64,000 nt of DNA from Trypanosoma brucei (lineage: Eukaryota), in the NCBI GenBank assembly GCA_000002445.1, contig AL929603.2:832001-896000 (forward strand), written 5' to 3'. A program made the position numbers. Below, one piece after another: positions 15,001 to 21,000 of this stretch (position 1 is its first letter; each line of letters starts with the position of its first letter).

Positions 15001-18000
15001 CTCCTACGTCAACCGTGGCCACGACACCGCCGCGTGCCGAGGTTTTGAGGGATCATAGTAGTCAAGCAACCACTACCGGTGGTGGTGTGGCCAACCCATT
15101 TCGTGGGCTTCACAACCACATCACACGTAGCTATCGACTCGATCAGCTTCAGGCGGCGATGAAGATTCATGATCTGTTGTTAGGCCGGCAAGAGGTCAAG
15201 TCCGGTGCATTTTCATTTATTCGTTTTGCATGCGGACCGAAGTTCATAAATGACCACCGTGAGATTGTAGGACCGGACGCTGGTGGTGGTGTTGGTGTTA
15301 GTGGTGCCGATGAGAAGAAAGGCAGTAGCCGCAACAGTAGCCGCACCAATGGCAGTGAAGACTGCCCACTTGTCATTGCTGAACGTCTCCTTTCGTTTCC
15401 CCCACATATGCACCACTTTCACACCGTCTGTGGTCGAGAGAACGTTCCATGTGACTTCTTTGCCGATATCGACTTACCGAATGAAACCCCGGCCGGCGGG
15501 GAAAAGGCGTTGCTTGAGGTGTTGAACTATCTTGACGTGCGATTGGAGGCGATTGGTTTTTCGCAGCCATCGTTCCTTGTTCTTACCAATGAGGTTCCGA
15601 GTGCGGGGAAGGTTTCATACCATCTGCATGCCCGTTCCATGGGGACACAATCTGATAGTGGTGGAGCCGCAGCTGCCGGTTCGATGGGTTCTTCTGGTGG
15701 GAGTGGTGGAGCCGGAGTTGATGAGCATAGTGCCGGTGGTGATGTGAAGCAAGGTAGGGGTCGATCAGCTGAGGGTGGTAAGTCCAGGGCCTCCCATGGA
15801 AAAATTGTTGCCTTTCAGGACTATCGTGTTGTAAAGCTTCTTGCCGATGAGGTGAACACAACCCTCGGCAGGACGGTAATTGATGAGCAGTGCTACCGTG
15901 TTAACGGCATGCTTCGCTGTGCCTACAGTAGTAAGATAACTGTGCCACAGGGGATGCCCTTATCCTCCAACACTGCCGGAGGATATCATAGAGGAAAGCG
16001 GCTAGTTCCGCTCTTGAAGGCGAAAGACACTGCGCTTCAGAAGCGTTTAGACGATATGGCTGCCCACTTATGTACTCTTAGTGACGCTCAGATACTGGAG
16101 CGGACCTTTTGCATTCGCACCGCCCCCGTTAAGGAGCGGCGCGTTACAGAGAATGAAGACGTTGATAACGCTCAGAAGTTGTTGAGGGCGAGGAGTGATT
16201 ACCTCCGTTCCTTCAAACTCATTCGTGCAAAGAACATTGTAGGTGCTCAGAATGCAAAGCCTGTAGAGTATGATGCCTATGGTAATGTTGTTTCGAGGTA
16301 TTTAACCGAATCCGCCAAGTGGCATCGTTTCAAGACAGCTGTGGAAAAACTTCACCGCCTGCCGCCACGAGCTGCGGAATGTTACGACATTTGGGTGCGT
16401 GTGGGCCTTGCATTGCACAATTTTAGCAACGAGGACCACGTGTTTGAGGAGTGGGTCCGGTTTTCTCTTAAGTGCCCGCAGAAGTATTCGCGTGAGACGT
16501 GCAGGCGGAAGTGGCAGCAATTCGATCGCAACCCCGATGCGCTGAATTGGAGACGTGGATTTAATTATTTGAATAGTACCGTCTGGCGTTCTGTACCGGG
16601 TTGTTAGTGCAGGAGGAAAAAGAGGCGGCAGGGGGCGGTCAGCAGGTTTTGCTTCCGGGCTATAATCTGTTGTGCCACACGTCTTCTTTTTTGTCTTTTT
16701 GTTTTTTTTAGTTCTTGTTTTGGTGTTGTTGTGTTGTACCGCTGGGCAACTCATTGCAAGAGGCTGTGTTTCTTTCTTTCTTTTTTTTTTTAATACTTTC
16801 TTTATTTAGTGAGTTGTTTCATTCCATTGAGGTTTGGTGGTGGGCAACGGGCATGCATCATGAAGGGGGGGGGTGTGGGGGAGAGGGGGATGGGAAGTTT
16901 TGAGTTTATGAGGGAAAAATGTAGCAGTGGAAGGGAAGAGAGATGCATTTCATTATTTTAATGTGCTCCCGACTTCTTTTTACACACTTTCCTCTGCGTG
17001 TGTCTCTGCATGTGTGTGTGTTTTTTATTTTATTATTTTGTTTTGCTTCTTTCTATTCTCGAATGCATTTTTCGCTCGTACTTCTCAGCGTATCGTCTGT
17101 ACTCGTTTCAGAGTTGCTCCTCCTCCCCCCCTCTCTCCCTTTTTCCTTCCTTCCTTCCCTCCTTCCTTCCTTACGTTTTTACTTCAACTCCCTTTTTGCT
17201 TTTACGCCAATTTTTGTTTATTTTCCTCTTCCTATTTTTTTTTCGTTTTTCTTCTTTTCCCTTTTTTATATTGTTGGGCCCCTTCCTGTTGCCACAGTGA
17301 CTGTGGGACCCTCACCTCCTCTTTCTTCGTCTTCCCATTTTTTTTTCTTATTTATTTTATTATGTATTTGTACATCAAAGAGAGCATCGCGAATCTTTTT
17401 TGAACATGTTCCTTCCTTGCGTGTGTTGTCCGTGTGCCTGTACGAATTTTTTTTTTTTCTATCAGGTTTAGAAGTTTAATCGCTTGTGAGGACATGTTTT
17501 TGTTTTAGGCGTTTGTACACTTCTCTTCTTTTTATCAAAGCGATGTAACGAATGCAAAACAAAGGCGAAGAGGTGAAACAGAGGAAGGAATAAATGAAAA
17601 GTAAATAAGAAATAAGAGGGACGTTTTGACTGACGGAGGAAAAGAAAAGAAGAAAAAAAGAAAAAAGGGGAAAAGGGGGAAAGGGGAAAAAAAAGAAAAA
17701 AAAATAAAAAGAGAAGAGAAGAAATACATTAGGATCTATTGACATTTTGTCATGTGTTTGTGTTACTCCTTTTCTTTTCTTTTTTTCCTTTTCTTTTGTG
17801 TTATTATTATTATTATTATTATTTATTGTTTCCCCCTCTTTCCTTCCATATATTTCACTCTCTCACGTAAACATGCATGTTGGTTTCATTTCATGCATGT
17901 ATGAGTGTGTTAGTTTGAGTAAGTGAGAGCTTAAACTAATTGATAGAAAACAAAAAAAAATATAAATATATATATATATATATATATTGGCGTAAAAACA

Positions 18001-21000
18001 AAACAAATAAAAATTAGGGAGGCACACACGCGTATGCATATATGCATGTGTGTAAAGTAAAACAACGAAGTGGAGCGGAGAATTATAGACAACTGTGCCT
18101 TAATTGTTATTGTTATTGTTATTGTTGTTGCTCTGGTTGTTTATTACTTTTGTTTTTTTTGTTTTTTGTGATGTTTCACTTCCCCTCACTATTATTATTA
18201 TTATTATTATTATTTTTTTTGTGTGTGTGTGTTTGTTTTTTCTTACTTTTTTTTGTTTTTTGTTTTGTTATGAGTGTTTGCGCTTTTTGGTTGCATGTTG
18301 TGAGGCGCCAGAATGGCAAGTCGCAATAAAAATAATTAACGAAAAGCAGAGAGGAAAAAGAAAGAACAAAAAACAACAAACGCGCAATAACAAAAAAAAA
18401 AAGAAAAACTCAAGAAAAAATTATAGAAAAGCGGGAGTGGAAGGGAAAATAAAAAGAAAAAGGGGGGAAAAAAAGGAAAGGAAAAAGAGAGCAATAAAAT
18501 AAACAAAGAAAAGAGAGGTAAAAAGAGAGAGAGAGAGAGAGAGAGAGAAAAAAGGAAAAGGGGGAATAATAAAAGGAGAGAAGGAAGTGCGTCAAACTTT
18601 AACGGCAACAGTCAACAACGGCGAAAACTAATAGAAGAAAAAAAAAGAAGTTCCAAAAAAAAAAGGATGAGAATATATATTTATATATTTATATATATAT
18701 GTATATTGTATGCGTATGCGTATGCGTATATTTATATATATATATAAATATATGTAGAAATATGTTATTCATTTATTTATATATGTAACATTACTCATTA
18801 CTCATTATTCATTATTATCGCTTTTTCTGTTGCTGTTGTGGTTATTTATTGTTATTACACCGCTTTTTAGCGGTGTGTATAATTTAAAGTTTGTATGCTC
18901 GTCTTAACTCGTCTTTTTTTTTTTTTTCAAATCTTATCTTATCTTATTTGTACTTTCCTCTTTCCTCTTTTTTTTTCCTTTGTTTTCGATTATTATTCTT
19001 ATTTCATTTCCTTTGTTTCTTTTTTTCTTTTTAAAAAAATATTTTTTTTTATTAAAAAAAAAAATGACACATCCCTTCCACCCGCTCTGTGGTACCTTTA
19101 GAAAAATTTATTCTCCTTCTTCTTTCCTTCTTTCCATTTTTCGGTGTTTGTTTGTTTGTTTATTTATTTATTTTATTCATTTCCCTCTAGTGTAGTGTAC
19201 ACAATCGCAGTATTATGTACTAATGTGTCACTCGTGTACTCCTTTACTTTCCTGCATTCTCTTCCCTCTAACATTTCTTTTTTTTTTACTTTTTTTTTTT
19301 TCCGGTCCCCTCCCTTGTTATATTTATATTTAAAACTTTTGTTTTTCTTGTTCTTTTTTTTTTGTGTAAAAAAGAAAAGAAAATTATCATTACCTCTCTT
19401 TCTCAACTACACTGCGCGCGATTCATGCGTCATTTCATTACTGCCCTCGTTATCATCATAATTATTATAAATGCTATTGTTATTGCGCACCTCATGCCGT
19501 TTTACTGCTTCATTATGTCTCTTCACTCATATCACATCATATCATATCATATCTCTTCTCTTCTCTTTTTTTTATTTTCTTTTCTCTCATCATCTACTTT
19601 ATTATTATTATTATTATTTGTTTATATGTACTGCATTAACATTACTTTAGGGTATTCATTATCTGTTCAGTTACACTTTTTTTTTAATTATTTTTCTTCA
19701 TATATATATATATATTATTATTATTATTCTTTGTCTTTCAGAGTTGCAGCCACCTGAAGAAGGCAGCTTTTTATTCATAAGGCATTTATACGATTTGCCT
19801 TTGAAACCATACACGCATACATAAGAAAAGAAGTTGTGGCTCCCTCCTCTTTTTTCTTTCTTTTTTTTTTTAAAAATTTTCCTTCTTTTTTGAATATTAT
19901 TATTATTATTATTTCTCTCCTCTCCCTAAACACCCACGCAAGAGGAGAGTAGGAGAGAAAAGAAAAAGAAAAGAAAAGTAAAAGAAAAAGAATTTAGTGC
20001 GAGTGAGAGAGGTTACCGACTTCAAGGAACGGAATAGCGGCGATACAACGAGGAGGTGAGGGGGAAAAAAAAAGACAAGGGATATTAGCCAGCTGAAAAC
20101 ACCAACAACAATCAAACAAAGAAATAAATAAATTATATAAATAAATAACTAAAAGGAATATTCGGAGAGCAAAAAACAAACAAACAAACAAACAACGAAA
20201 AACAAGTCAGAAGTGAAGTGGGAGTGTAGAGGTGTGTTTGACACTTGAAGTTAAGAGGCGAATTAGAGTTAGTCAGAAATTAATAAAATAGACAGCAAGA
20301 AAGTTACGTACGCACAAATACACACAAGTACACACGCAAAAGAAAAAAAAAATTCAGCATAAGGGGATTGACAAGAGAGAGAGAGAAAGAAAGAAAGAGG
20401 TGGAAAAAAAAAGGAAAAGGGGCTGCTCAAAGGAAACGAAGGGAATCGAAAGCAGTGCGTGGAAGTGCCAAAATCGCACAGACTTATACATAAACTGTAT
20501 TGTAGGGACTTTCTTATTACAGGGGAGGAATTTCAAATCAGAAAAGGTGTTGGGCAAGGCAAAAAAGAGGAACGGCGAGTCTCTTTTTTTTTTTTTTTAA
20601 AGAAAAAAAATTGTTCTTTTTGCCTCTCTTCTAGTATCAAGTAATTCACATATTTGTGCATCCCGTGGAGGAAGGTGGAAAAAAACAAAAAAAAAAACAA
20701 AAAAAGAAACACAAAAACAAAGCAACCACAGCAAGAGGAGAACACAAGAAGGAGGTGTGAAGGGTTCATTGAGTAGCACCAACATCACAACAAAATTGGC
20801 TCTACCACATGTCTGATGATGCTGCGGACTCAAAAACCGCTAAAAGCATCACCAAGTCCAAATCAAATGGAGATGATGGTTCTAAAGCTGCTGCCAGCCT
20901 TGACACTGTGGGATCATTGGGTGTACATGAACAAGTGGAACTTCTCGCACAGGCATTACTACGTGAGTTTATGCATCGGCGCGGTTACACAAAAACACTT

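What the first reader, a model, noticed from the sequence alone, without database searches (positions are those of the whole stretch)
16608..20808. 4.2 kb gene-free interval of alternating polypyrimidine and polypurine blocks
Typical trypanosome intergenic or UTR spans are shorter. Here, over 4 kb contains no protein-like ORF but shows strong strand asymmetry that flips several times: CT-rich for about 800 nt, AG-rich for about 200 nt, CT-rich, AG-rich with a (GA)12 run, CT-rich for about 800 nt, then AG-rich for about 900 nt. Mirror-repeat polypurine and polypyrimidine tracts can form H-DNA or triplexes, and G-runs occur at 16863-16890. The region could hold very long UTRs, an unannotated ncRNA, or a replication or transcription pausing element inside the polycistron.
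Basis: seen in the sequence. Interest (0 to 1): 0.5.

Follow-up and report, generated by a model that had tools for sequence, protein, structure and literature searches.

The report
Long low-complexity 3'UTR of trypanosome primase PRI2
The 4.2 kb gene-free stretch is the long, repeat-rich untranslated tail of the Trypanosoma brucei mitochondrial primase PRI2 mRNA plus the short leader of the next gene, an extreme example of a known kind of trypanosome UTR and not a new element.

Summary
Window 16608-20808 is exactly the gap between two same-strand coding sequences. It consists of alternating pyrimidine-rich and purine-rich blocks, an (AG)12.5 run and a G-run. This is far beyond dinucleotide-shuffle expectation.

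The window is T. brucei TREU927 chromosome 1, 832001-896000: 16 of 16 published splice-site dinucleotides match at that offset. Published procyclic-form mapping (Kolev 2010) assigns 28 poly(A) sites (67 reads) across 16801-20541 to PRI2 (Tb927.1.4010). The main site is 18151 (3'UTR 1,544 nt) and a distal cluster gives 3.46-3.93 kb. The downstream gene Tb927.1.4040 is trans-spliced at 20635. No splice acceptor or novel transcript is listed inside the interval. The two old ORF calls there have no transcript of their own.

Purine/pyrimidine flipping occurs in all the longer inter-CDS regions of the window. This one is the extreme in length, block fraction, microsatellite cover and predicted self-pairing.

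There is no Rfam or tRNA hit, no dispersed repeat and no conservation outside T. brucei.

It fits the published class of long poly-purine/poly-pyrimidine/palindromic 3'UTRs (Trenaman 2024; "P5-UTRs", Bravo Ruiz 2026). That it regulates PRI2 is an inference. Interest is low.

The parts
12858..16607 (+). Upstream flank: CDS of mitochondrial DNA primase PRI2 (Tb927.1.4010), 1249 aa
   Evidence: Pfam PPL5 and PriCT_2. 99% identical to 'primase 2' of T. b. equiperdum. The gene id comes from PMC10719067. The published CDS coordinates 844858-848607 equal the window coordinates plus 832000.
16608..18151 (+). Proximal 3'UTR isoform of PRI2 (1,544 nt), ending at the predominant poly(A) site 18151
   Evidence: Kolev 2010 Tables S5 and S13: PAS 850151, 20 of 67 reads, 'predominant 3'UTR 1544'. 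The predicted MFE is -450 kcal/mol, z about -9.6 against 10 dinucleotide shuffles.
18152..20541 (+). Distal 3'UTR extension of PRI2. Minor poly(A) sites lie throughout, with a distal cluster at 20069-20541 (3'UTR 3.46-3.93 kb)
   Evidence: Kolev 2010 Table S5: 29 of 67 PAS reads fall at 852069-852541. The averaged 3'UTR is 2,541 nt and the dispersion is 1,134.
16865..16894 (+). G-run matching the canonical G-quadruplex motif. In the predicted fold it pairs with the C-rich tract 17121-17139
   Evidence: Regex scan: 1 of 5 plus-strand G4 motifs in the window. The MFE contains a 17-bp helix 16877-16895 / 17121-17139.
17117..17172 (+). 56-nt pure pyrimidine (C/U-rich) tract including (TTCC)7.5. 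One of 11 internal polypyrimidine tracts of at least 30 nt
17635..17704 (+). 70-nt pure purine tract, the longest homopurine or homopyrimidine run in the window. It contains a mirror repeat at 17661-17692
17960..17987 (+). (AT)14 palindromic microsatellite. Similar AT-rich palindromic tracts lie at 18673-18753 and 19700-19715
   Evidence: TRF. Perfect palindromes of at least 12 nt were counted.
18520..18566 (+). 47-nt pure purine tract containing (AG)12.5 (18524-18548). It includes a mirror repeat with 16-nt arms
18190..18420 (+). U-rich / A-rich imperfect long hairpin, just downstream of the main poly(A) site
   Evidence: strand folding: -60.2 kcal/mol, z -4.4 against 200 shuffles. Inverted repeat I2.
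20542..20634 (+). Inter-transcript spacer. It holds the polypyrimidine tracts 20580-20598 and 20611-20632 and the AG (20633-20634) that direct trans-splicing of the downstream gene and, through the known coupling, distal PRI2 polyadenylation
   Evidence: The sequence itself. SAS 852635 with 'ag' and 15 reads. The coupling rule is established knowledge and is restated in PMC9380746.
20635..20808 (+). 5'UTR (174 nt) of Tb927.1.4040
   Evidence: Kolev 2010 Tables S4 and S12: predominant SAS 852635, 5'UTR 174.
20809..22428 (+). Downstream flank: CDS of Tb927.1.4040 (539 aa), a protein with a MINDY4 N-terminal dimerisation domain
   Evidence: Precomputed Pfam PF26038. Synteny is conserved across trypanosomatids.
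16943..17479 (+). Former gene model Tb927.1.4020 (178 aa), a spurious ORF reading through pyrimidine tracts
   Evidence: F/L/S-rich translation, with no tblastn match in syntenic loci below E = 0.1. Listed in Kolev Table S2 as producing no detectable transcript of its own.
19425..19757 (+). Former gene model Tb927.1.4030 ('hypothetical protein, unlikely', 110 aa), a spurious ORF

Best explanation
The interval is transcribed UTR sequence inside a Pol II polycistron of T. brucei chromosome 1. It is not a separate gene or element.

Shown by published mapping at matching coordinates:
- Bases 16608 to about 20541 are the 3'UTR of the PRI2 (Tb927.1.4010) mRNA.
- That 3'UTR is polyadenylated heterogeneously. 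There is a main site at 18151 (1.54-kb UTR) and a distal cluster at 20069-20541 (3.5-3.9-kb UTR).
- Bases 20542-20634 are a short spacer carrying the polypyrimidine tract and AG.
- Bases 20635-20808 are the 174-nt 5'UTR of Tb927.1.4040.

Shown here:
- The purine/pyrimidine block pattern is the normal composition of the longer inter-CDS regions of this window, taken to an extreme by short-tandem-repeat growth.
- 35% of the interval is tandem repeat.
- Its indel rate against T. b. equiperdum is 2-5 times that of neighbouring intergenic DNA, while its substitution rate is the same.

Inferred, about 0.4:
- In that model, A-rich purine tracts raise translation, and complementary U/C-rich tracts mask them by intramolecular pairing.
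- The 11 or more internal polypyrimidine tracts are potential cryptic processing signals. They are normally suppressed, as proposed for DRBD18. Leakage would give the proximal and scattered poly(A) sites.
- The choice between the 1.5-kb and 3.9-kb isoforms would then set how much of this regulatory sequence PRI2 mRNA carries.
For: Identity of the locus:
- 16 of 16 published SAS dinucleotides match the window at offset 832000.
- The PRI2 annotation is supported.

Transcript ends (Kolev 2010):
- 28 PAS are assigned to PRI2 across 16801-20541. None of the 28 lies more than 3,934 nt past the stop codon. The SAS of Tb927.1.4040 is at 20635.
- No SAS is listed between 844904 and 852602.
- No novel transcript is listed on chromosome 1 between 776500 and 998688.
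- Tb927.1.4020 and Tb927.1.4030 are listed as having no transcript of their own.
- The distal PAS subcluster 20498-20541 lies 94-137 nt upstream of the SAS, which is the usual coupling distance.

No other kind of gene:
- Rfam gives 0 hits at gathering score, and only sub-threshold low-complexity miRNA-like hits below it.
- No tRNA.
- No dispersed repeat.
- The ORFs are low-complexity and not conserved.

Generic nature of the pattern:
- R/Y blocks occur in all the longer inter-CDS regions, 13 of 14 in all.

Extreme values for this interval:
- R/Y-state fraction 0.48, against 0.40 or less elsewhere.
- Tandem-repeat cover 0.35, against 0.20 or less.
- Strict purine and pyrimidine 9-mer density 10.0 and 10.5 per kb, the top of 14 regions.
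- Predicted folding z of -9.6 and -5.8, against +0.6 to -3.4 in four comparison regions. The helices pair R arms with Y arms.

Evolution:
- Synteny PRI2 -> MINDY4N protein -> phosphatase is kept in T. vivax, T. cruzi, T. conorhini and L. major, with gaps of 3,085, 1,189, 1,517 and 2,952 bp.
- No sequence conservation is found beyond a reversed-sequence control.
- Against T. b. equiperdum, substitutions are 0.61% (neighbours 0.56-0.94%), while indel events are 14.8 per kb (other intergenic regions 2.9-7.0).

The class is described in PMC11405848, bioRxiv 10.64898/2026.01.20.700697 and PMC9380746.
Against: - The transcript mapping comes from one life-cycle stage (procyclic) and one 2010 short-read dataset. 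Reads are few: 67 PAS reads and 16 SAS reads.
- Ten of the 28 PAS (21 of 67 reads) have at least 7 A in the 10 downstream bases, so they could be internal-priming or placement artefacts.
- The main site at 18151 lies in a U-rich context and not at an A, which is unusual.
- PAS were assigned to the nearest upstream CDS. A distal RNA starting at a cryptic, poorly sampled splice site would therefore be mis-assigned to PRI2.
- I found no data showing that PRI2 expression depends on stage, temperature, AGO1 or DRBD18. The supplements I could search did not list the gene.
- The motif densities are my own strict proxy, not the papers' FIMO counts.
- The folding z-scores rest on 10 shuffles. Low-complexity complementary blocks give low energies whether or not they are functional.
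Confidence: 0.82

Rival explanations
1. Neutral expansion. The interval is UTR or intergenic sequence, but its length and block pattern are only the by-product of replication slippage and recombination among A-, T-, AG- and CT-rich microsatellites. They have no regulatory role for PRI2. Only the last 100 nt or so (polypyrimidine tract plus AG) and the poly(A) sites matter.
For: - 35% tandem-repeat cover.
- Indel events 14.8 per kb against T. b. equiperdum, with an unremarkable substitution rate.
- No primary-sequence conservation with other species.
- The gap is only 1.2-1.5 kb in T. cruzi and T. conorhini.
- The most used poly(A) site removes more than half of the interval from the mRNA.
Against: - Published reporter and machine-learning work ties the dosage of exactly these tract types to translation and to thermo-regulation genome-wide.
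- The gap is also about 3 kb in T. vivax and L. major.
- The predicted self-pairing is stronger than in the comparison regions.
Confidence: 0.3
2. The distal half hosts one or more independent non-coding transcripts. Cryptic trans-splicing occurs after an internal polypyrimidine tract, for example at the AG at 18273 after tract 18236-18266. It is coupled to the 18151 poly(A) site. It would yield a capped, polyadenylated RNA of about 2 kb (about 18.3-20.5 kb) that acts as a lncRNA in some life stage.
For: - The main PAS at 18151 lies 85 nt upstream of a 31-nt polypyrimidine tract and 122 nt upstream of the first following AG, which is the geometry of coupled processing.
- Such 3'UTR-derived, trans-spliced RNAs are documented after DRBD18 loss.
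- More than 1,000 lncRNAs are reported in T. brucei (abstracts).
Against: - No SAS is mapped anywhere in the interval, and no novel transcript is listed there in procyclic forms.
- No structured-RNA family is matched.
- There is no conservation.
- The nanopore lncRNA supplement that could be searched did not name the flanking genes. That search was by gene id, so it is weak evidence.
Confidence: 0.12
3. A DNA-level non-B structure element. H-DNA or triplexes at the mirror repeats, a G-quadruplex at 16865-16894, or R-loops act as a replication or transcription pausing site inside the polycistron.
For: - Seven H-DNA-type mirror repeats (1.67 per kb) and one G4 motif are present.
- R-loops in T. 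brucei are most abundant in inter-CDS regions and track poly(A) site density, so they very likely form here.
Against: - The same features occur in other inter-CDS regions of the window: mirror repeats at up to 1.64 per kb, and 8 G4 motifs window-wide.
- R-loop enrichment is described as generic to all inter-CDS regions and shows little correlation with replication origins (abstract).
- The downstream gene is expressed, so transcription does not terminate here.
- In the RNA, the G-run is predicted to pair with a C-tract.
Confidence: 0.05
4. Hidden protein-coding genes. The old models Tb927.1.4020 (178 aa) and Tb927.1.4030 (110 aa) are real small proteins.
For: The ORFs exist. They were once annotated, and an automatic annotation of T. 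b. equiperdum again calls ORFs there.
Against: - F/L/S-rich low-complexity translations of pyrimidine tracts.
- No match in syntenic loci of four species.
- No transcript or splice site of their own.
Confidence: 0.02

Closest known systems
Long T. brucei 3'UTRs rich in poly-purine (pPuT) and poly-pyrimidine (pPyT) tracts (Trenaman et al. 2024, PMC11405848). Exemplars: RBP10, RDK2, GPI-PLC, CFB2
   Same: - A multi-kb 3'UTR built of A-rich purine tracts and U-rich pyrimidine tracts at high density.
- Low-complexity and rapidly evolving.
- The tract types are complementary to each other.
   Different: - PRI2 is a kDNA replication enzyme, not one of the RNA-binding proteins or kinases highlighted in that work.
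- Its most used poly(A) site gives only 1.5 kb.
- No evidence was found here that PRI2 is up-translated in bloodstream forms or scored in the reporter screen.
[quoted passage not shown]
   Same: - All three tract types are present, including paired A/U-type and G/C-type tracks and (AT)n palindromes.
- The UTR is long.
- Strong R:Y self-pairing is predicted.
   Different: - The temperature and AGO1 dependence of PRI2 mRNA or protein is unknown to me.
- The interval also carries five (UUA) tracts of at least 5 units, which that paper links to a different regulon (ZC3H11 heat shock).
Long 3'UTRs with internal polypyrimidine tracts whose use as processing signals is suppressed by DRBD18 (Bishola Tshitenge et al. 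2022, PMC9380746). Examples: RBP10, DRBD12
   Same: - Many internal polypyrimidine tracts (11 of at least 30 nt).
- No detectable internal trans-splicing.
- Multiple alternative poly(A) sites giving shorter and longer isoforms.
   Different: - Whether PRI2 mRNA is bound by DRBD18 or affected by its loss was not found.
- Here a short isoform is already prominent in wild-type procyclic cells.
Generic trypanosomatid inter-CDS region with coupled polyadenylation and trans-splicing, and R-loop enrichment (Kolev 2010, PMC2936537; Briggs 2018, PMC6294496)
   Same: - The same architecture: 3'UTR, then heterogeneous PAS, then polypyrimidine tract and AG, then 5'UTR.
- The same compositional style as its neighbours.
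   Different: About 10 times the median 3'UTR length, and the most repeat-rich of the 14 regions in the window.

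Membership tests
Trypanosomatid inter-CDS region (3'UTR + spacer + 5'UTR) within a Pol II polycistron | Flanking CDSs lie on the same strand in a unidirectional gene array | tested here: met
   All real ORFs of at least 200 aa in the window are on the + strand. The flanks are PRI2 and Tb927.1.4040.
Trypanosomatid inter-CDS region (3'UTR + spacer + 5'UTR) within a Pol II polycistron | A spliced-leader acceptor AG, preceded by a polypyrimidine tract, lies upstream of the downstream CDS | tested here: met
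   The published SAS 852635 equals window 20635 (15 reads). The AG is at 20633-20634 and the tracts are at 20580-20598 and 20611-20632.
Trypanosomatid inter-CDS region (3'UTR + spacer + 5'UTR) within a Pol II polycistron | Poly(A) sites of the upstream gene are mapped within the interval, with the distal ones about 100-300 nt upstream of the splice signal | tested here: met
   28 published PAS. The distal subcluster 20498-20541 lies 94-137 nt upstream of the SAS.
Trypanosomatid inter-CDS region (3'UTR + spacer + 5'UTR) within a Pol II polycistron | No independent transcript between the two genes | tested here: met
   This holds for procyclic forms only. There is no internal SAS and no Tb1.NT transcript between 776500 and 998688, and Tb927.1.4020 and Tb927.1.4030 are listed as lacking a transcript. 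Other life stages were not checked.
pPuT/pPyT-rich long 3'UTR (Trenaman 2024) | 3'UTR longer than 2 kb | tested here: inconclusive
   37 of 67 PAS reads give more than 2 kb (29 of them 3.46-3.93 kb), and the averaged UTR is 2,541 nt. The single predominant site gives 1,544 nt.
pPuT/pPyT-rich long 3'UTR (Trenaman 2024) | More than 20 A-rich pPuT and more than 20 U-rich pPyT motif hits per kb (FIMO p<0.01 with the paper's 9-nt motifs) | not testable with these tools
   The motif matrices were not available. My strict proxy counts non-overlapping pure 9-mers with at least 6 A or at least 6 T. It gives 10.0 and 10.5 per kb, the highest of 14 regions.
pPuT/pPyT-rich long 3'UTR (Trenaman 2024) | The mRNA is up-translated in bloodstream forms, or its fragments score in the reporter assay | not tested
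   The gene id was not found in the text-held supplements. No expression data were accessible.
P5-UTR (Bravo Ruiz 2026) | [quoted passage not shown] | tested here: met
   14 pure R or Y tracts of at least 20 nt. (AT)14, AT-rich arrays and 6 perfect palindromes of at least 12 nt. G-rich and C-rich 9-mers number 19 and 15.
P5-UTR (Bravo Ruiz 2026) | Potential to form intramolecular duplexes between the tracts | tested here: met
   In silico only. MFE z is -9.6 and -5.8, against +0.6 to -3.4 for the comparison regions (10 shuffles each). Most long helices pair a purine-rich arm with a pyrimidine-rich arm.
P5-UTR (Bravo Ruiz 2026) | Temperature-responsive, AGO1-dependent transcript abundance | not testable with these tools
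   This needs the paper's expression tables or new experiments.
H-DNA / intramolecular triplex-forming sequence | Homopurine-homopyrimidine mirror repeat (arms at least 10 nt, short spacer) | tested here: met
   Seven in the interval, with the longest arms 16 nt at 18520-18552. The density of 1.67 per kb compares with 0-1.64 per kb elsewhere.
H-DNA / intramolecular triplex-forming sequence | Structure formation under supercoiling or in vivo (S1 or chemical sensitivity) | not testable with these tools
   Experimental only.
Known structured ncRNA gene (snoRNA, tRNA, other Rfam families) | A match to a covariance model at its gathering score, or a tRNA call | tested here: not met
   0 hits at gathering score on the whole window. 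Only sub-threshold miRNA-like low-complexity hairpins were found (19-40 bits, against gathering scores of 64-107). There are 0 tRNAs.
Protein-coding gene | A conserved, non-low-complexity ORF with its own processed transcript | tested here: not met

The most novel reading that the evidence does not exclude
The kDNA primase PRI2 may be controlled by a temperature- and stage-sensitive RNA 'zipper'. Pairing between the purine and pyrimidine blocks (including the G-run with its C-tract), together with the switch between the 1.5-kb and 3.9-kb 3'UTR isoforms, would tune PRI2 synthesis, and hence minicircle replication capacity, between tsetse and mammal. Alternatively, the distal half is released as a trans-spliced lncRNA in a stage not yet sampled.
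Probability: 0.15. Interest if true: 0.4.

Novelty: already known. Interest (0 to 1): 0.15.

Why it matters
The finding matters little beyond housekeeping. It shows that a striking compositional pattern in raw trypanosome sequence is the normal signature of long 3'UTRs. It also shows that the ORFs inside such tracts (Tb927.1.4020 and Tb927.1.4030) are artefacts.

If the inferred layer were true, PRI2 would be a convenient test case. Its UTR has the highest tract density, tandem-repeat content and predicted self-pairing among the 14 inter-CDS regions of this window. It has two well-separated poly(A) choices. It could be used to test the recently proposed purine/pyrimidine 'masking' and AGO1-dependent thermo-sensing models, and to link them to mitochondrial DNA replication.

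Tried and rejected
- Rfam in E-value mode on 16000-21500 and in gathering mode on the whole window. Only sub-threshold miRNA-like hits on AT- and AG/CT-rich hairpins were found. I rejected them as low-complexity matches.
- tRNA scan: none.
- Hairpin 17620-17810, suggested by the MIR529/MIR2118-like hits, is no better than shuffles (z -0.8).
- Dispersed-repeat or retroelement remnant. A dust-filtered blastn of the interval against the rest of the window gave one 28-nt hit.
- Conserved element. blastn (word sizes 11 and 7) against the orthologous gaps of T. vivax, T. cruzi, T. conorhini and L. major gave scores no better than against reversed sequences.
- Lost gene. No gene is called between PRI2 and the MINDY4N protein in any of the five other syntenic loci examined, other than two short low-complexity ORFs (190 and 80 aa) in T. 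b. equiperdum that correspond to the spurious ORFs of the window. tblastn of the two ORFs was negative.
- PUF9 motif UUGUACC at 16734. The window-wide count is 8 against 6.9 expected, so it is not evidence by itself. The cycling sequence CAUAGAA is absent.
- T. congolense orthologous locus: the protein is not on record for contig look-up.
- Supplement searches for the flanking gene ids were empty or the files were not held. The papers tried were Siegel 2010, Nilsson 2010, Guegan 2022, the nanopore lncRNA paper, the DRBD18 paper, the 2026 UTR-annotation preprint and Trenaman 2024.
- Hines and Ray 2011, wanted for a possible PRI2 Northern blot, is not held.
- Long-inverted-repeat siRNA loci: none of the seven published loci is on chromosome 1.
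- A first folding script timed out.

Full report
**What is in the sequence**

Window 16608-20808 is exactly the gap between the stop codon of a 1249-aa ORF (12858-16607) and the ATG of a 539-aa ORF (20809-22428). Both ORFs are on the + strand.

The upstream protein carries the Pfam domains PPL5 and PriCT_2. It is 99% identical to 'primase 2' of T. brucei equiperdum. This is PRI2, Tb927.1.4010 (PMC10719067). The downstream protein has a MINDY4 N-terminal dimerisation domain.

The (AG)12.5 run is at 18524-18548. The G-run at 16865-16894 fits the canonical G-quadruplex motif. There are 14 pure purine or pure pyrimidine tracts of at least 20 nt, the longest being 70 nt at 17635-17704. There are seven H-DNA-type mirror repeats.

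48% of 100-nt windows are at least 70% purine or at least 70% pyrimidine. The mean in 200 dinucleotide-preserving shuffles is 0.15%.

**How special it is**

The pattern is not special in kind. Thirteen of the 14 inter-CDS regions of the window show purine-rich or pyrimidine-rich blocks, and all those of about 2 kb or more flip repeatedly (for example RYRYR in 2.4 kb, YRYRYRY in 2.1 kb and RYRYRYR in 3.1 kb). Coding sequence shows almost none. Strict alternation is automatic once adjacent blocks of the same type are merged. The flip density here, about 1.9 per kb, is ordinary.

The interval is extreme in degree:
- It is the longest gap, at 4,201 bp against a next-longest of 3,116 bp.
- It has the highest block fraction, 0.48 against 0.40 or less.
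- It has the highest tandem-repeat cover, 0.35 against 0.20 or less.
- It has the highest density of strict A-rich purine and U-rich pyrimidine 9-mers, at 10.0 and 10.5 per kb.
- It has the highest mirror-repeat density, by a small margin: 1.67 per kb against up to 1.64.

**Where the window comes from, and what is transcribed**

Kolev et al. 2010 (PMC2936537) list transcript ends in Tb927_01_v4 coordinates. With an offset of 832000, the PRI2 CDS (844858-848607) falls on 12858-16607. All 16 splice-acceptor dinucleotides that I checked across the window match. The window is therefore T. brucei TREU927 chromosome 1, 832001-896000.

In that procyclic-form dataset:
- PRI2 has 28 poly(A) sites (67 reads) between window 16801 and 20541.
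- The predominant site is 18151 (20 reads, 3'UTR 1,544 nt).
- A distal cluster at 20069-20541 (29 reads) gives 3'UTRs of 3,462-3,934 nt.
- The averaged 3'UTR is 2,541 nt, with a dispersion of 1,134.
- Tb927.1.4040 is trans-spliced at 20635 (15 reads, 5'UTR 174 nt). The AG is at 20633-20634, behind the pyrimidine tracts 20580-20598 and 20611-20632.
- No splice acceptor is listed anywhere between the PRI2 sites and 20602.
- No novel transcript is listed on chromosome 1 between 776500 and 998688.
- The two old gene models inside the interval, Tb927.1.4020 (16943-17479) and Tb927.1.4030 (19425-19757), are in the table of ORFs 'not producing a detectable transcript'.

The translations of those two ORFs are F/L/S-rich low-complexity strings. 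They have no match in syntenic loci of other species.

The same paper gives a median 3'UTR of 388 nt and a range up to about 6,000 nt. A 3.9-kb UTR is therefore in the upper tail but within the known range.

**Other kinds of element were looked for and not found**

- Rfam gives nothing at gathering score on the whole window. In the interval it gives only sub-threshold miRNA-like matches to AT-rich and AG/CT hairpins.
- There are no tRNAs.
- There is no dispersed repeat.
- None of the seven published long-inverted-repeat siRNA loci is on chromosome 1.

**Comparative evidence**

The gene order PRI2 -> MINDY4N protein -> metallophosphatase is conserved. The gaps are:

| Species | Gap (bp) |
|---|---|
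| T. b. equiperdum | 4,178 |
| T. vivax | 3,085 |
| T. cruzi | 1,189 |
| T. conorhini | 1,517 |
| L. major | 2,952 |

. The position of the PRI2 C-terminus was verified by tblastn.

No sequence similarity to the T. brucei interval exceeds that seen against reversed control sequences.

Against T. b. equiperdum, the substitution rate in the interval (0.61%) equals that of neighbouring CDS and intergenic DNA (0.56-0.94%). Indel events are 14.8 per kb, against 2.9-7.0 in other intergenic DNA. This fits slippage-driven turnover of microsatellites. Part of it could be homopolymer error in that long-read assembly.

**How it most likely works**

Shown: the interval is the PRI2 3'UTR with alternative ends, plus a spacer of about 93 nt with the processing signal, plus the 174-nt 5'UTR of the next gene.

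Established knowledge: in trypanosomes a polypyrimidine tract and AG direct trans-splicing of the downstream mRNA and, by coupling, polyadenylation of the upstream one (restated in PMC9380746). The distal poly(A) subcluster at 20498-20541 lies 94-137 nt upstream of the 20635 acceptor, as expected.

The interval also contains at least 11 internal pyrimidine tracts of 30 nt or more, yet no internal splicing was detected. The main 18151 site lies 85 nt upstream of one of these tracts (18236-18266; first AG at 18273).

Inference: the internal tracts are mostly masked cryptic signals, as proposed for DRBD18-bound long 3'UTRs. Partial use of them gives the proximal and scattered poly(A) sites.

The composition matches two recently described and overlapping classes.
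[quoted passage not shown] In silico, the proximal isoform (16608-18151) folds at -450 kcal/mol, with z about -9.6. The next 1.5 kb gives z about -5.8. Four comparison regions give +0.6 to -3.4. Each z rests on only 10 shuffles.

The long predicted helices pair purine-rich arms with pyrimidine-rich arms. One of them pairs the G-run 16877-16895 with the C-tract 17121-17139. A U-rich/A-rich hairpin at 18190-18420 has z -4.4.

Whether any of this regulates PRI2 is not shown. I found no expression data for the gene.

**Caveats**

- The mapping comes from one stage and a low-depth 2010 dataset.
- Ten of the 28 poly(A) sites (21 of 67 reads) have at least 7 A in the 10 downstream bases. They could be misplaced or internally primed.
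- The 18151 site is in a U-rich context, which is atypical.
- Poly(A) sites were assigned to the nearest upstream CDS, so a rare distal RNA would be hidden.

**Verdict**

The feature is an extreme but ordinary member of a published class, in a region whose transcript ends were already mapped. The novelty rating is 'already known' and interest is low.

Noticed in passing
window 17801-17821, 18190-18213, 19599-19616, 19713-19727, 19895-19912: The interval holds five (UUA)/(UAU) tracts of at least 5 units. That is 5 of the 11 such tracts in all inter-CDS regions of the window. A (UUA)4 motif is reported as the signature of the ZC3H11-linked heat-shock regulon. Whether PRI2 responds to heat is unknown.
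   Followed up: partly
window 16734-16740: A single plus-strand UUGUACC lies 127 nt after the PRI2 stop codon. This is the PUF9-associated motif of late-S/G2 replication-related mRNAs, described as necessary but not sufficient. The window-wide count is 8 against 6.9 expected, so it may be chance.
   Followed up: partly
window 18151: The most used PRI2 poly(A) site (20 reads) falls after '...ttattactttt' and before 'gtttttttt'. It is not at or next to an A, although the source paper reports a preference for A at poly(A) sites. This is unexplained. It could be a real U-context site or a mapping quirk.
   Followed up: no
L001 (T. equiperdum OVI contig CZPT02000763.1), start of the contig; about window 19700: This short-read assembly contig begins only 1,105 bp upstream of the Tb927.1.4040 orthologue, at about the position of the (AT)8(TAT)5 microsatellite. 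The assembly probably broke inside this low-complexity interval.
   Followed up: no
window 28685-29314: A 209-aa GTG ORF with purine fraction 0.30 and GC 0.35 is another pyrimidine-tract artefact. Nearby old gene models (Tb927.1.4060, Tb927.1.4070 and Tb927.1.4080) are 'hypothetical protein, unlikely' with no transcript.
   Followed up: partly
window 12858-15100 (PRI2 residues about 1-750): The N-terminal 60% of PRI2 is A/T/P/R/S-rich low-complexity sequence with repeated 'VTVVTPTR...' units. It swamped the word-based homology search, which returned only two hits. Called PRI2 orthologues in other species are much shorter, at 543-722 aa.
   Followed up: no
window 10392-12857: The gap upstream of PRI2 (2.4 kb) has the same block style (RYRYR). 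According to Kolev 2010 it holds the 1,786-nt 3'UTR of Tb927.1.3950 and the 483-nt 5'UTR of PRI2. It also holds at least three 'unlikely' ORF models (Tb927.1.3980, Tb927.1.3990 and Tb927.1.4000).
   Followed up: no
L002 17929-19560 vs window 20809-22428: The T. b. equiperdum orthologue of Tb927.1.4040 is 543 aa against 539 aa. There are 12 gap columns in 2 events within the CDS.
   Followed up: no
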